Source of the DNA: Candidatus Korarchaeum sp.
GTDB taxonomy: Archaea; Korarchaeota; Korarchaeia; Korarchaeales; Korarchaeaceae
Direction: 5' to 3'
Length of the DNA: 64,000 nt
Assembly: GCA_020833055.1 (NCBI GenBank)
Contig: JAJHQZ010000001.1
Coordinates: 301,141 to 365,140, forward strand
The translations under genes and the position numbers were made by a program. Below the pieces are notes generated by a model that searched no databases, had not been told where the DNA came from, and saw only the letters and a list, made by a program, of their open reading frames with translations. Each line of letters opens with the position of its first letter. Within the stretch, counting starts at the first letter, position 1. Below are positions 13,960 to 17,105 of this stretch, piece by piece.

Positions 13960-14550
13960 TTATGGGAAAATATTACCTTTCTTTATCAAGCAATCTATAT
14001 ATGCGCTCACTACATGGAATACATCATCAGGGCTGAGTCCAGTGGTATCTATCACGAGGTGAAATGGACTCAGGTCCTTACCGATATCGAAGCCATATAG
14101 ACCCTTATATATCCTATAACTCCTCTCCTCTTTGATCATTATCCTTCTCTTCGCCTCTTCTATACTTATCTTATCTCTCTCAGCAACTCTAAGCGCTCTA
14201 GCCTCGAAGTCCGCTTTCAGAAATATCTTTATACAGGACTCACAATCTAAAAGGTATGCCATAGTCCAAGAATCTAAGACATATCCTCCTTCTTTAGCGA
14301 GCTCCATTAACCTCCTATCGACCTCTAGATCATACTTTGAGTCCTCTAGTCTACGTTCCAATGCTTCCTCGCCCTGTTCCCTCTCCCACCAACCTGGATC
14401 TCTCAAACTCTCCTCCCCCGCAATTATCTCCTTCAGTATCTCCCCACCGGATACGACTTTCAGACCATATTTCTCAGCTAATTTTCTCGCTAAAGTGCTC
14501 TTTCCCGTCCCAGTCATACCGGAGAGGCATATATTGAACATAATCGACAC
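13960..14550 (-). CDS. cmk: Cytidylate kinase, archaeal type
   Basis: SGMTGTGKST P-loop, DLEVDRRL, RALRVAERD, RYKGLYGFDI-like segment and IDTT. Confidence 0.9.
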   Translation of the reverse strand: MSIMFNICLSGMTGTGKSTLARKLAEKYGLKVVSGGEILKEIIAGEESLRDPGWWEREQGEEALERRLEDSKYDLEVDRRLMELAKEGGYVLDSWTMAYLLDCESCIKIFLKADFEARALRVAERDKISIEEAKRRIMIKEERSYRIYKGLYGFDIGKDLSPFHLVIDTTGLSPDDVFHVVSAYIDCLIKKGNIFP

Positions 14551-14551
14551 C

Positions 14552-15526
14552 CTATATCAAAGGCCATGGTAGATCGTCAGCTCTCCATTCCGGTAATATC
14601 TTGGAGTTCATGGGATCCTCTGGGGGTGAGATCCCGTACTTATAGCAGAGGAAGGCCGTCCAAGCTATCATAGCCCCATTATCTCTAGCTAAATCCGGCG
14701 GAGGTACTTTCAGTCTCGCGCCTCTTTCCTCGCACATCCTCCTCACCTTCTCCCTGAATCTAGGTGATGCAGCCACCCCTCCAACTAATAATAGCTCCTC
14801 CTTACCTGTGAGAGCCAACGCCCTCTCAGCTACCTCGACTGTCATTGAGAAAGCGACTTCCATGAAGCTCCAAACGATATCCTCCTTCTTAAAACCGGCT
14901 CTCAACTTCCTCAGGGATTCCGTGAGTAGGCCGCTGAAGCTGAGATCCATCCCCTTCACTGTGTAGGGGAGTTCCACCCAGTTTCCTACGATCTCATCCA
15001 TGATAGGGCCCGGTGGGAAGGGGAGGCCTATCTCCCTGCCGAGCCTATCTTGAGCGTTCCCCAATCCTATATCTAAGGTCTCTCCCAGGACGACGTATCT
15101 ACTCCCATTGTGTGAGATGACTTGAGTATTCCCTCCGGAGACATAGAGGATAACTGGATCCCTGCTCCCCGTTACAGCCCTCCCTATCTCTATATGAGCT
15201 ATTGGGTGGTTCACGCCGAAGAGAGGCTTCTTAATCTTCAGGGAGAGGGATCTAGCTATGAAGGCCCCTACTGCTAAGGCCTGCCCTATCCCTGGGCCTT
15301 TAGAGAAACCTATAATCGATATATCCTTCGGAGAAACTCCAGCTGAGGATAGAGCTTCCTCTAGGACATCTAAAGCTACATTAAAATGATGCTCAGCTAT
15401 ATCGTGGGGCCTCATCCCCCCGCTCTCTGAGGAGTAAGTACGCCATTTGTTCGCTAAGATCCTCCCTCTCCCATCTACTAAACCGACACCGAAGGTGTGA
15501 GCTGTCGATTCTATGCCAAGAGATAT
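14552..15526 (-). CDS. kae1: tRNA N6-threonylcarbamoyltransferase Kae1; start uncertain (no canonical start codon for the conserved N-terminus)
   Basis: The frame upstream of the track ATG (15415) reads EDKISLGIESTAHTFGVG...GGMRPHD. Also HPIAHIE, LYVSGGNTQ, TLDIGLGN, KGMDLSFSG, GGVAAS and DNGAMIA. ATA at 15526 is a provisional start. Confidence 0.9.
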   Translation of the reverse strand: MSLGIESTAHTFGVGLVDGRGRILANKWRTYSSESGGMRPHDIAEHHFNVALDVLEEALSSAGVSPKDISIIGFSKGPGIGQALAVGAFIARSLSLKIKKPLFGVNHPIAHIEIGRAVTGSRDPVILYVSGGNTQVISHNGSRYVVLGETLDIGLGNAQDRLGREIGLPFPPGPIMDEIVGNWVELPYTVKGMDLSFSGLLTESLRKLRAGFKKEDIVWSFMEVAFSMTVEVAERALALTGKEELLLVGGVAASPRFREKVRRMCEERGARLKVPPPDLARDNGAMIAWTAFLCYKYGISPPEDPMNSKILPEWRADDLPWPLI

Positions 15527-16140
15527 CTTATCCTCGAGTACTCCTTCATCACGAGATCGAATGGTACATCCCCCTCCCTCACTAATACAGGCTCCCCTCT
15601 CGTTAAATCCACTATCGTAGATGGCCTGCTAGGGGGTAGCCTCCCATAATCTAAGAGGAGGTCAGCTTCTACCTCCATAGCAGCTTCTACAGGATCTAAC
15701 TTAGGGGGGCTTCCTGATTTGTTCGCGCTAGTAGCTGTTATAGCTCTCCCGAACTCCCTTATGATCCTCAATACTATGGGGACATTGGGGATCCTTATGC
15801 CTATTGCCTCAGGATTTACTATATCTGGGACCCTCGATGTCTTTTTAAGTATAAAGGTCACTTTTCCTGGCAAAAATTTTTCCATAAGCTTCCTACTGAT
15901 TTCATCTATTACAGCATATCTCTCAGCCATCTCTATATCGCTCACAGCTATCGTGAGTCTCTTCTCCTCAGGCCTTCCCTTCACTTCATACACCCTCTTA
16001 ACGGCATTTATATTCTCAGCATCAGCTCCCAGACCGTAAACAGTATCCGTTGGATAGATTATGAGCTTCCCATTCCTCAGAGCATCGACCACCTCATCTA
16101 TTATACCTTCTCCCCCCTCCCTCAAGTATATCCTCCTCAT
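15511..16140 (-). CDS. sua5: L-threonylcarbamoyladenylate synthase (YrdC/TsaC domain only)
   Basis: YPTDTVYGL, VKGR, TSANKSG, PSTIVD and REG. There is no C-terminal SUA5 domain. Confidence 0.92.
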   Translation of the reverse strand: MRRIYLREGGEGIIDEVVDALRNGKLIIYPTDTVYGLGADAENINAVKRVYEVKGRPEEKRLTIAVSDIEMAERYAVIDEISRKLMEKFLPGKVTFILKKTSRVPDIVNPEAIGIRIPNVPIVLRIIREFGRAITATSANKSGSPPKLDPVEAAMEVEADLLLDYGRLPPSRPSTIVDLTRGEPVLVREGDVPFDLVMKEYSRIRYLLA

Positions 16141-16199
16141 AATCTGATCTCCCGAGATCCATTTTTTAATCCAACGTGGAGGTGGGAGTTGGAAGGCCT

Positions 16200-17105
16200 A
16201 TGGATGAGGATTACATAGATGCTATGATGAGGCTCGGTGAGGCGCACTCCTCCATTCTAGAGGGCTTCGTTAGCAGAGTGAAAGAGGGGGTTAAGCTCAT
16301 CGATATAGCTGAGGAATCCGAGCGTAAGATAAGGGAGATGGGATATGAACCAGCCTTCCCAACTAACATCTCGGTGAATCAGGTAGCAGCCCACTATACT
16401 CCATTCCCCGGTGATGGTAGTTCTATCCCCTCAGGCTCTCTGGTGAAGCTCGATATAGGGGCTCACGATGAAGGGATAATAGTGGATGCTGCGAGGACAG
16501 TAGTATTCGATGATAAGTATGAAGGTATGGTTGAAGTAGCTAGAGAGGCTTTGATGAGAGCTATCGAGAGAATGGCCCCAGGAAGGAAGCTAATAGAAGT
16601 GAGTGAAGCGATATATGAGACGATAGTCTCCTCAGGTTATAAGCCTATAAGCAATCTGACTGGACACAAGATAGAAATCTATAGGTTGCACGCTGGTGTA
16701 GATGTTCCGAACGTCCCGGTAAGGGGAAATTATAGGATCAAGGAGTGGGATGTTTTCGCGATAGAACCTTTCGTCACTACGCCGGACTCTAAAGGTTACG
16801 TAGTATCTCAAGGCGAGCCCCTGATATTCTCCCTCAGGAAGAAGGTCGGGACGAGGGACGAAGTTGAGAGGAAGGTCCTCAAATCTATAGAGAGAAACTA
16901 CAGTAAATTGCCCTTCTGTGAGAGGTGGATCTGGAATGAGATAGGGATGAGGGTGAATGATGCTTTGATCCGCTTGACTAAGAAGGGAGCGCTCTTCCCA
17001 TACCCTCCCCTCATCGAGGTCTCTGGGAGGCCCGTAGCTCAGTATGAGGACACTATATTAGTGACCCCTGAGGGGGCGGTAAATCTGACCGGTGGGGGCA
17101 AATGA
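16200..17105 (+). CDS. map: Methionine aminopeptidase type II
   Basis: AFP.NIS.N.VAAHYTP, KLDIG, DAART, NLTGH, AIEPF and QYEDT. Confidence 0.96.
   Translation: MDEDYIDAMMRLGEAHSSILEGFVSRVKEGVKLIDIAEESERKIREMGYEPAFPTNISVNQVAAHYTPFPGDGSSIPSGSLVKLDIGAHDEGIIVDAARTVVFDDKYEGMVEVAREALMRAIERMAPGRKLIEVSEAIYETIVSSGYKPISNLTGHKIEIYRLHAGVDVPNVPVRGNYRIKEWDVFAIEPFVTTPDSKGYVVSQGEPLIFSLRKKVGTRDEVERKVLKSIERNYSKLPFCERWIWNEIGMRVNDALIRLTKKGALFPYPPLIEVSGRPVAQYEDTILVTPEGAVNLTGGGK

What the first reader, a model, noticed from the sequence alone, without database searches (positions are those of the whole stretch)
15415..15630. kae1 has no canonical start codon and overlaps sua5 in the -1 frame: non-AUG start or Sua5-Kae1 fusion
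The essential Kae1 N-terminal motif (LGIESTAHTFGVG) lies upstream of the first in-frame ATG (15415). Reading that frame back to the previous stop near 15630, I found no ATG, GTG or TTG. The junction reads ...AGA TAT CTC TTG GCA TAG in the sua5 frame and ATA TCT CTT GGC ATA GAA in the kae1 frame. One extra base (e.g. TTG GGC) or a -1 shift would give a continuous protein ...KEYSRIRYLLGIESTAH..., fusing the two consecutive t6A enzymes. This sua5 is YrdC-only, lacking the domain that helps shield the labile TC-AMP intermediate, so a fusion could channel it. Alternatives are initiation at ATA 15526 or an assembly indel. t6A is essential, so a true pseudogene is unlikely.
Basis: partly seen in the sequence, partly recalled or inferred. 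Interest (0 to 1): 0.7.

Follow-up and report, generated by a model that had tools for sequence, protein, structure and literature searches.

The report
kae1 starts at an ATA codon
The essential tRNA-modification gene kae1 of this Korarchaeum genome has no ATG/GTG/TTG start and most likely begins at an ATA codon inside the end of the upstream sua5 gene; it is a rare but known type of start codon that public annotation already uses here, not a fused Sua5-Kae1 enzyme.

Summary
The kae1 frame (minus strand, open 15628-14552) has no ATG, GTG or TTG before 15415. The conserved N-terminus (S-L-G-I-E-S-T-A-H) lies upstream of that ATG. The sua5 stop (TAG 15513-15511) lies inside kae1, in the other frame.

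The Sua5-Kae1 fusion reading is not supported.
- More distant relatives carry the classic 4-nt overlap (ATGA, GTGA or TTGA), so these are two separate cistrons.
- Twelve of 21 Korarchaeum genomes, in three independent clades, have lost the canonical start. All 12 keep an intact kae1 with ATA or ATC at the first or second codon.
- No slippery heptamer exists in any of the 21, and the sua5 tail varies in length.

An assembly error is excluded, because the closed K. cryptofilum OPF8 genome shows the same state.

NCBI already holds the 324-aa proteins that start at this ATA (this contig) and at ATC (OPF8, WP_052568499.1). JGI and Logan gene callers truncate the protein to 287 aa.

The case is not unique. 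About 10 of 998 orthologue pairs have conserved coding sequence upstream of any canonical start, and radA begins at ATC, ATA or ATT in all 17 genus genomes read.

The most likely mechanism is initiator-tRNA initiation at AUA, coupled to sua5 translation.

The parts
14552..15526 (-). kae1 coding sequence as inferred here: 324 codons plus the TAG stop, starting at ATA
   Evidence: TIGR03722 arch_KAE1 scores 406.4 bits (cut-off 375), with residues 3-319 on model positions 2-319. PDB 2ivn matches at E = 4e-101 from residue 2. The exact 324-aa protein with M at the ATA is in NCBI on a 389,235-bp contig, which is this contig.
15524..15526 (-). ATA, the inferred non-canonical start codon of kae1
   Evidence: It sits at the position of the second codon (Ile) of relatives that start with ATG, GTG or TTG. 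All 12 genus members without a canonical start have ATA or ATC at this codon or the one before it.
15530..15535 (-). Weak Shine-Dalgarno-like GAGGAT, with the GAGG core 5 nt before ATA
   Evidence: The 16S 3' end reads ...GGATCACCTCCC, giving an SD of GGGAGGTGATC. Of 300 confident starts, 47% have an SD match of at least 5 nt, with a modal spacing of 7 nt. kae1 has only a 4-nt core at spacing 5, which is weak.
15511..16140 (-). sua5/tsaC: single-domain YrdC-type L-threonylcarbamoyladenylate synthase, 209 aa plus TAG
   Evidence: PF01300 at 177.5 bits and TIGR00057 at 191.8 bits (cut-off 123.2). No PF03481 anywhere in the genome. The only other PF01300 hit lies in a 774-aa ORF on another contig; by its length I take it to be HypF-like (not scanned).
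15511..15526 (-). 16-nt overlap of the sua5 3' end and the kae1 5' end. The sua5 stop TAG (15513-15511) lies 13 nt after the A of ATA.
   Evidence: The ancestral state in relatives is a 4-nt NTGA overlap.
15413..15415 (-). First in-frame ATG (codon 38 of Kae1). This is the false start used by ATG/GTG/TTG-only gene callers and gives a 287-aa truncated protein.
   Evidence: The 287-aa sequence is held by JGI/IMG, Logan and ENA.
15629..15631 (-). In-frame TAG that closes the kae1 frame upstream
15560..15562 (-). In-frame ATT 12 codons upstream of ATA, a possible but unlikely alternative near-cognate start
   Evidence: It is fixed by the conserved Pro-Phe codons of the sua5 frame and is also present in the genus relatives that have a canonical kae1 start, so it carries no specific signal.
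15480..15511 (-). Possible hairpin starting at the G of the sua5 stop, 16 nt after the A of ATA. Status uncertain.
   Evidence: Predicted. On 28 relatives, 73% of cells pair against 70.8% in shuffles (12 of 500 shuffles reach the observed value), and the covariation score is reached by 8 of 500. This is weak and within the tool's stated false-positive range.
13960..14541 (-). Archaeal (d)CMP kinase gene, 10 nt after the kae1 stop on the same strand, behind a GGTG motif
   Evidence: TIGR02173 at 108.1 bits (cut-off 102.1).
16176..17105 (+). Type II methionine aminopeptidase gene, divergent from sua5
   Evidence: TIGR00501 at 275.2 bits (cut-off 222.65).

Best explanation
kae1 is a separate, intact cistron. 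Its translation starts at the near-cognate codon AUA (15526-15524), read by the ordinary initiator tRNA (anticodon CAU), and gives Met-Ser-Leu-Gly-Ile-Glu-Ser-Thr-Ala-His... (324 aa).

The ancestral arrangement was a 4-nt start/stop overlap, sua5-NTGA-kae1. In that overlap the G is both the third base of the kae1 start and the second base of the sua5 TGA stop. The alignments are consistent with a G-to-C change there in each losing lineage (NTG to NTC). Such a change removes the start and the stop at once. Sua5 then runs on for a few codons to the next TAG, and kae1 is left with an ATH codon.

Initiation at the weak codon is most likely helped by two things. One is the SD-like GAGG 5 nt upstream. 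The other is ribosomes finishing sua5 only 13 nt downstream (translational coupling or termination-reinitiation). Together these would tie a low Kae1 output to Sua5 synthesis.

What is shown:
- No canonical start exists in the frame.
- The N-terminal coding sequence is conserved.
- The canonical start was lost three times independently in the genus.
- Other genes in this genus also start at ATH or CTG codons.

What is inferred: which exact codon is used, that Met is inserted, and that translation is coupled to sua5.
For: 1. Relatives. At the codon before I/L-S/A-L-G-I-E-S-T-A-H, nine genus members and the outgroups of the same family, order and class carry ATG, GTG or TTG. In most it overlaps the sua5 stop as ATGA, GTGA or TTGA; three carry TAGTG instead. 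Twelve genus members have AAG-ATA/ATC, ATC-ATC, ATC-CTC, GTC-ATC or CTC/TTC-ATA instead. None of the twelve has a canonical codon back to the upstream stop.
2. The Kae1 tree needs exactly 3 independent changes of state (bootstrap range 3-3). One of the clades has 8 members at 84-95% identity, so the state persists through speciation.
3. The 37 codons between ATA and the first ATG differ from G016 by 6/3/17 substitutions at codon positions 1/2/3, with 13 synonymous and 7 non-synonymous codon changes. That is the pattern of coding sequence under purifying selection.
4. The Kae1 family model and solved structures align from residue 2-3.
5. NCBI holds exactly this 324-aa protein for this contig, and the ATC-started WP_052568499.1 for K. 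cryptofilum OPF8.
6. The lineage uses such starts elsewhere. radA has ATC, ATA or ATT 5-6 nt after AGGTGAT in 17 of 17 genus genomes read. In two of them an in-frame stop directly precedes the ATT.
7. Further cases in this genome include PFOR-gamma at CTG (G016 has TTG-ATG there), rpp29 at ATC (G016 has GTG) and a ubiD-like gene at CTG (G016 has ATG). In total about 10 of 998 orthologue pairs qualify. Four of these starts are also in NCBI's annotation of this contig.
8. The initiator tRNA is ordinary: CAU anticodon, A1 and three G-C pairs in the anticodon stem.
9. ATA and ATT starts are functional but weak in bacteria (ATG > ATA > ATT in a reporter assay). Fixed non-canonical starts occur in 6 of 2265 Listeria core genes (PMC13068326).
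10. Tight coupling of overlapping gene pairs by termination-reinitiation has been shown in an archaeon (PMC6728339).
Against: - There is no direct evidence: no N-terminal peptide, no ribosome profiling and no RNA data.
- The SD in front of ATA is weak, a 4-nt core at an uncommon spacing of 5 nt.
- AUA is expected to be an inefficient start for an essential gene.
- Which ATH codon is used cannot be told from sequence in genomes that have two. In G016 and G005 (GTC-ATC), and in G019, G004 and G014 (CTC/TTC-ATA), the inference rests on the second codon.
- NCBI's agreement is not independent experimental evidence. I assume its pipeline picks starts partly by homology and allows the table-11 alternative start codons.
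- The roughly 1% genome-wide rate comes from a hand-curated screen of 70% of one comparison genome, with no control genome pair.
Confidence: 0.75

Rival explanations
1. Programmed -1 ribosomal frameshift near CUC-UUG-G produces a Sua5-Kae1 fusion protein (...KEYSRIRYLL-GIESTAH...) that channels TC-AMP.
For: The kae1 frame is the sua5 frame shifted by -1, and the two overlap by 16 nt. A predicted hairpin begins 6-7 nt after the hypothetical shift site. YrdC-like and Kae1-like domains are fused in HypF, TobZ and pandoravirus TsaN (PMC10321239, PMC10484737), so fusion is chemically sensible.
Against: - No X XXY YYZ heptamer occurs in the last 60 nt of sua5 in any of the 21 genus members.
- Re-pairing of tRNA-Leu from UUG onto CUU would be unfavourable (my inference from the codons).
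- The place where a shift would have to occur differs between clades. In G019, G004 and G014 the sua5 stop overlaps the ATA itself (TCATAG).
- Nine genus relatives have plain NTGA or TAGTG overlaps with canonical starts.
- The region folds no better than shuffles (z = +1.24), and the covariation of the hairpin is weak.
- Other genes lacking canonical starts, such as radA, have an in-frame stop directly upstream and nothing to fuse with.
Confidence: 0.03
2. Sequencing or assembly error (a missing base or a miscalled start codon) in this assembly.
For: None was found.
Against: The same AAG-ATA/ATC junction is present in four assemblies of this clade, including the closed OPF8 genome. Eight further genomes lack a canonical start in other ways.
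Confidence: 0.01
3. kae1 is translated from the first ATG (15415) as a 287-aa protein, or is a decaying pseudogene.
For: ATG/GTG/TTG-only gene callers produce this 287-aa model.
Against: That model removes the first 37 residues, including the conserved G-I-E-S-T-A-H hairpin. From my knowledge of the ASKHA fold, this is the phosphate-1 motif. Those 37 codons are under purifying selection (6/3/17 differences by codon position) and are conserved throughout the class. kae1 is single-copy in a genome that is 99.5% complete. There are no internal stops in any of the 21 genus genomes.
Confidence: 0.03
4. Initiation occurs at a different near-cognate codon in the kae1 frame, for example ATT 15562-15560, giving a 12-residue N-terminal extension.
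For: ATT is an allowed table-11 start, and it is conserved in the genus members.
Against: Its conservation is explained by the Pro-Phe codons of the sua5 frame. It is equally present in the genus relatives with canonical kae1 starts, where it is clearly not used. The extension would not match the Kae1 family N-terminus. No SD precedes it.
Confidence: 0.07

Closest known systems
Genes with fixed near-cognate start codons in prokaryotes (infC AUU and rnhC AUC in Listeria, PMC13068326; E. coli infC and pcnB AUU from my own knowledge; NCBI table 11 lists ATA, ATC, ATT and CTG as starts)
   Same: An intact, conserved gene with no ATG/GTG/TTG. An AUH codon sits at the homologous start position. The state is stable over evolutionary time. 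Output is presumably lowered.
   Different: Here the host is an archaeon. The start was lost three times independently in one genus, at the same gene. The start lies inside the upstream gene, and the SD is weak. No regulatory loop like infC-IF3 is known.
Translational coupling by termination-reinitiation at overlapping gene pairs (ATGA, TGATG), shown in Haloferax volcanii and E. coli (Huber et al. 2019, PMC6728339)
   Same: The sua5-kae1 pair has the 4-nt NTGA overlap in most relatives. The two products act in consecutive steps of one pathway.
   Different: In this genome the overlap has grown to 16 nt and the restart codon is AUA. Whether reinitiation tolerates non-canonical codons in archaea has not been tested, to my knowledge.
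Natural fusions of YrdC/TsaC-like and Kae1/TsaD-like domains: HypF, TobZ (PMC10321239) and pandoravirus TsaN (PMC10484737)
   Same: The same two catalytic domain families are involved, with hand-over of an acyl-adenylate intermediate.
   Different: Those are single ORFs. Here the two ORFs are in different frames with a stop between them and no frameshift signal.
Programmed -1 frameshifting in archaea (Saccharolobus solfataricus fucA, from my own knowledge)
   Same: Two overlapping ORFs offset by -1.
   Different: fucA has a classical slippery heptamer. None exists here.

Membership tests
Kae1 (KEOPS N6-L-threonylcarbamoyladenine synthase, TIGR03722 / PF00814) | Full-length match above the curated cut-off, including the N-terminal hairpin | tested here: met
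   406.4 bits against a cut-off of 375, with residues 3-319 on model positions 2-319. PF00814 at 234 bits. PDB 2ivn at E = 4e-101 from residue 2.
TsaC/Sua5 (TIGR00057 / PF01300) | YrdC-type catalytic domain above the cut-off, and presence or absence of the SUA5 C-terminal domain | tested here: met
   TIGR00057 at 191.8 bits against 123.2, and PF01300 at 177.5 bits. PF03481 is absent from the genome, although the control genomes do hit it. This is therefore the single-domain TsaC type.
Gene with a non-canonical (near-cognate) start codon | No ATG/GTG/TTG between the upstream in-frame stop and the conserved N-terminus, with the N-terminal codons under purifying selection | tested here: met
   (6/3/17 differences by codon position).
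Gene with a non-canonical (near-cognate) start codon | A near-cognate codon at the position homologous to the canonical start of relatives | tested here: met
   All 12 genus members without a canonical start have ATA or ATC at the first or second homologous codon.
Gene with a non-canonical (near-cognate) start codon | A ribosome-binding site at functional spacing | tested here: inconclusive
   Only GAGG(AT) at 5 nt. The genome's modal arrangement is GGAGG followed by 7 nt.
Gene with a non-canonical (near-cognate) start codon | Experimentally determined N-terminus or initiation site | not testable with these tools
Programmed -1 ribosomal frameshift site | Slippery heptamer X XXY YYZ in the upstream frame | tested here: not met
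   None in the last 60 nt of sua5 in any of the 21 genus genomes.
Programmed -1 ribosomal frameshift site | Conserved stimulatory RNA structure 5-9 nt downstream | tested here: inconclusive
   A hairpin is predicted at 15511-15480, but the region's fold has z = +1.24. Pairing and covariation are barely above shuffles, reached by 12 of 500 and 8 of 500 shuffles.
Termination-reinitiation coupled gene pair | Stop and start codons overlapping or within a few nt | tested here: met
   Relatives have NTGA or TAGTG overlaps. Here the start lies 13 nt upstream of the stop.
Termination-reinitiation coupled gene pair | Translation of the downstream gene depends on translation of the upstream gene | not testable with these tools
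   This needs a reporter with a premature stop in sua5.

The most novel reading that the evidence does not exclude
Korarchaeum may have a lineage-wide relaxed start-codon rule, with AUH and CUG starts at about 1% of genes and at radA in every genus genome read.

At kae1 the weak AUH start could act as a sensor. Output of the t6A synthase would depend on how stringently the initiator tRNA and ribosome select start codons, which in yeast depends on t6A itself (loss of t6A doubles non-AUG initiation, PMC4717488). That would make a feedback loop analogous to infC-AUU/IF3.

Caveats: t6A37 mainly supports the first codon base, whereas AUA and AUC mismatch at the third base. Other genes that are not involved in t6A share the same kind of start.
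Probability: 0.07. Interest if true: 0.7.

Novelty: new member of a known kind. Interest (0 to 1): 0.3.

Why it matters
Practical value. Gene callers limited to ATG, GTG and TTG cut off the catalytic N-terminus of an essential enzyme. They give 287 or 308 aa instead of 324 aa in the JGI/IMG, Logan and ENA collections and in the original GenBank record of K. cryptofilum OPF8. The same truncation affects radA, rpp29, a ubiD-like gene and others, so proteomes of this lineage built with such callers are systematically clipped.

Biological value. The sua5-kae1 junction shows how a single base change could remove a stop and a start together and still be tolerated, three times independently. This points to a translation apparatus, or a coupling mechanism, that accepts AUH restart codons.

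What it is not. It is not a new enzyme architecture. There is no evidence for a Sua5-Kae1 fusion.

Tried and rejected
- **Fusion by -1 frameshift:** rejected.
- **Assembly error:** rejected on the evidence of 12 independent assemblies.
- **Unusual initiator tRNA:** aragorn finds an ordinary CAU initiator. Elongator Met and Ile2 tRNAs were not found without intron search and were not pursued.
- **Conserved RNA hairpin after the start:** weak and inconclusive. By my own reading of alignment A1, variable pair 18:39 is paired in 10 of 12 genomes without a canonical start against 6 of 16 with one. However, the 12 fall in only 3 clades, so I draw no conclusion.
- **SD strength compensating for the weak codon:** by eye on the junctions, there is no consistent difference between genomes with and without a canonical start.
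- **Genome-wide screen:** many apparent upstream extensions were artefacts and were discarded by eye. These were shadows of rRNA and tRNA genes, contig ends, split genes and conserved 5' leaders. pyrF, the HD-domain gene, the membrane protein, the aCPSF-like gene and an unknown gene remain candidates, but my guessed starts for them are not the ones in NCBI.
- **Literature:** no paper was found linking Korarchaeum to non-canonical start codons.
Full report
**What is in the sequence**

On the minus strand, a 209-aa single-domain YrdC/TsaC-type gene (sua5, 16140-15511) is followed by kae1. The kae1 frame is open from 15628 to the TAG at 14554-14552. Its first ATG, GTG or TTG is the ATG at 15415, which is codon 72 of the open frame.

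The conserved N-terminus ...I-S-L-G-I-E-S-T-A-H-T-F-G-V-G... starts at ATA 15526-15524. The sua5 stop, TAG 15513-15511, lies 13 nt further on in the other frame, and the kae1 frame is the sua5 frame shifted by -1.

A 37-codon coding stretch without a canonical start codon is not rare in itself (P about 0.10 at this genome's codon usage). The anomaly rests on homology. TIGR03722 (406 bits, cut-off 375) and the P. abyssi Kae1 structure 2ivn both align from residue 2-3 of the ATA-started protein.

**Relatives**

The genome search found one kae1 per genome in 40 of 41 relatives. I oriented and read the sua5-kae1 junction in 30 loci.

The gene order sua5-kae1 is conserved in most relatives of the same family, order and class. 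Those relatives and nine members of the genus have ATG, GTG or TTG one codon before I/L-S/A-L-G-I-E-S, or GTG at that codon. It usually overlaps the sua5 stop as ATGA, GTGA, TTGA or TAGTG, which is the classic arrangement of two translationally coupled cistrons.

Twelve of the 21 genus members have no canonical start anywhere between the upstream in-frame stop and the motif:
- G000 (this window), G017 and G001: AAG-ATA
- G013: AAG-ATC
- G015 and G006: ATC-ATC
- G007: ATC-CTC
- G016 and G005: GTC-ATC
- G019 and G004: CTC-ATA
- G014: TTC-ATA

G013 is a single 1,590,757-bp contig. Its Kae1 is the protein NCBI names for Candidatus Korarchaeum cryptofilum OPF8. An assembly error is therefore excluded.

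A maximum-likelihood tree of Kae1 needs exactly three independent changes of state (bootstrap range 3-3). One clade has eight members at 84-95% identity, so the state has persisted through speciation.

Kae1 has no internal stop in any of the 21 genus genomes. Between G000 and G016, the 37 codons upstream of the first ATG differ at codon positions 1/2/3 by 6/3/17. They are translated and under purifying selection.

**How the start was lost (inference from the alignments)**

In NTGA the G is both the third base of the start codon and the second base of the TGA stop. The codon in front of the ATH in eight of the twelve genomes is NTC (ATC, GTC, CTC or TTC), which is consistent with a G-to-C change. 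Such a change removes both signals at once. Sua5 then reads on for one to five codons to a TAG created by the Kae1 codons CTA-GGN, ATA-GAR or ATA-GCC.

In the window's own sub-clade the preceding codon is AAG and a single ATH codon remains. A single-base event that the organism survived three times implies that kae1 can be translated from the remaining AUH codon.

**Fusion by frameshifting**

The evidence is against it.
- No X XXY YYZ heptamer is present in the last 60 nt of sua5 in any genus member.
- The place where a shift would have to happen is not conserved. The overlap is 16, 10, 4 or 2 nt in different clades.
- The 121-nt region folds no better than shuffled sequence (z = +1.24).
- A hairpin predicted right after the sua5 stop (15511-15480) shows only marginal support on 28 sequences. 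Cells paired are 73% against 70.8% in shuffles, and 8-12 of 500 shuffles do as well. That is within the tool's stated false-positive range.

Fusions of YrdC-like and Kae1-like domains do exist in HypF, TobZ and pandoravirus TsaN (PMC10321239, PMC10484737), but they are single ORFs.

**Public annotation**

An exact-sequence look-up shows that NCBI already holds the 324-aa protein that begins at this ATA, on a 389,235-bp contig (this contig). It also holds the ATC-started WP_052568499.1, named 'KEOPS complex N(6)-L-threonylcarbamoyladenine synthase Kae1', for OPF8.

The original GenBank model ACB08220.1 is 308 aa. It starts at a GTG at codon 17 that this window lacks. JGI/IMG, Logan and ENA hold the 287-aa truncation.

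**Is kae1 special in this genome?**

I fetched 1.19 Mb of G016 and laid the G000 genome in the Python box. I then compared all stop-to-stop ORFs by blastp.

Of 998 orthologue pairs, about ten have conserved, third-position-biased coding sequence upstream of any canonical start in G000.
- PFOR-gamma: CTG-ATA where G016 has TTG-ATG; 2/1/41 differences by codon position over 88 codons.
- radA: ATC in both genomes.
- rpp29: ATC against GTG.
- A ubiD-like gene: CTG against ATG.
- A membrane protein: ATA against ATG.
- An aCPSF-like gene: ATC against ATG.
- Less certain: pyrF, an HD-domain gene and an unknown gene (ATT in both).

G016 has its own set, with CTG where G000 has ATG, GTG or TTG in three genes and ATT in a Rossmann-fold gene.

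radA was then read across the genus. All 17 readable genomes have ATC, ATA or ATT 5-6 nt after AGGTGAT. In two of them an in-frame stop immediately precedes the ATT.

NCBI's annotation of this contig uses the same non-canonical starts for radA, PFOR-gamma, rpp29 and the ubiD-like gene.

For scale, Listeria has 6 fixed non-canonical starts among 2265 core genes (PMC13068326). The Korarchaeum rate of about 1% looks higher, but my screen is hand-curated and has no control pair.

**Mechanism**

The 16S 3' end (...GGATCACCTCCC) predicts an SD of GGGAGGTGATC. Of 300 confident starts, 47% have an SD match of at least 5 nt, against 21% at control positions, with a modal spacing of 7 nt. radA has a strong SD.

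kae1 has only GAGG(AT) at 5 nt. I therefore think initiation at its AUA relies substantially on ribosomes that are translating or terminating sua5 13 nt downstream. Strict coupling of overlapping pairs by termination-reinitiation has been demonstrated in Haloferax (PMC6728339). The initiator tRNA is ordinary, so Met is expected at position 1. These last steps are inference.

**A speculative extension**

In yeast, loss of t6A doubles non-AUG initiation (PMC4717488). A t6A synthase gene with a weak start could therefore be self-regulating. I rate this as unlikely. The mismatch here is at the third codon base, and unrelated genes share the same kind of start.

**Context from earlier notes of this scan (unchecked leads)**

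Notes on several other archaeal lineages report ATA, ATC, ATT or CTG starts behind SD motifs or at stop/start overlaps. One note on this genome names the genus. They agree with my reading but are not independent evidence.

**Verdict**

The fusion and the artefact readings are rejected. A non-canonical AUA start is well supported by comparison and is already present in RefSeq-type annotation. The case is an ordinary member of a known class, with a modestly interesting lineage-level pattern.

Noticed in passing
G000 contig C13:113528-114556 (minus strand; outside the window); loci L091-L109: radA has no canonical start. All 17 Korarchaeum genomes read have ATC, ATA or ATT 5-6 nt after AGGTGAT. 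In G019 and G004 an in-frame stop directly precedes the ATT. This is a genus-wide AUH start on a core recombination gene.
   Followed up: yes
G000 genome, several contigs (coordinates on the oriented strand are): About 10 of 998 G000/G016 orthologue pairs have conserved coding sequence upstream of any ATG, GTG or TTG. They include PFOR-gamma at CTG, rpp29 at ATC, a ubiD-like gene at CTG, a membrane protein at ATA and an aCPSF-like gene at ATC. G016 has CTG or ATT starts in four further genes. JGI/Logan gene calls for radA, rpp29 and the ubiD-like gene are truncated.
   Followed up: partly
window 15480-15511 (minus strand): A 9-10 bp hairpin starts at the G of the sua5 stop, 16 nt after the A of ATA. 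By my own reading of alignment A1, variable pair 18:39 is paired in 10 of 12 genomes without a canonical start but in only 6 of 16 with one. Overall covariation is weak, and the 12 genomes form only 3 clades.
   Followed up: partly
G000 contig C10:3382-3903 (plus strand): A second PF01300 (YrdC-like) domain lies inside a 774-aa open frame. By its length this is probably HypF, a natural fusion of YrdC-like and Kae1-like domains in the same genome.
   Followed up: no
G000 contig C24, plus-strand open frame at 77235-77874: This ORF aligns only from residue 101 of a longer G016 ORF. The gene is possibly split or frameshifted in G000.
   Followed up: no
window 14542-14551: kae1 is followed after 10 nt (GGTGTCGATT) by an archaeal (d)CMP kinase gene, not by bud32 as in many archaea. 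A type II methionine aminopeptidase gene diverges from sua5 at 16176.
   Followed up: partly
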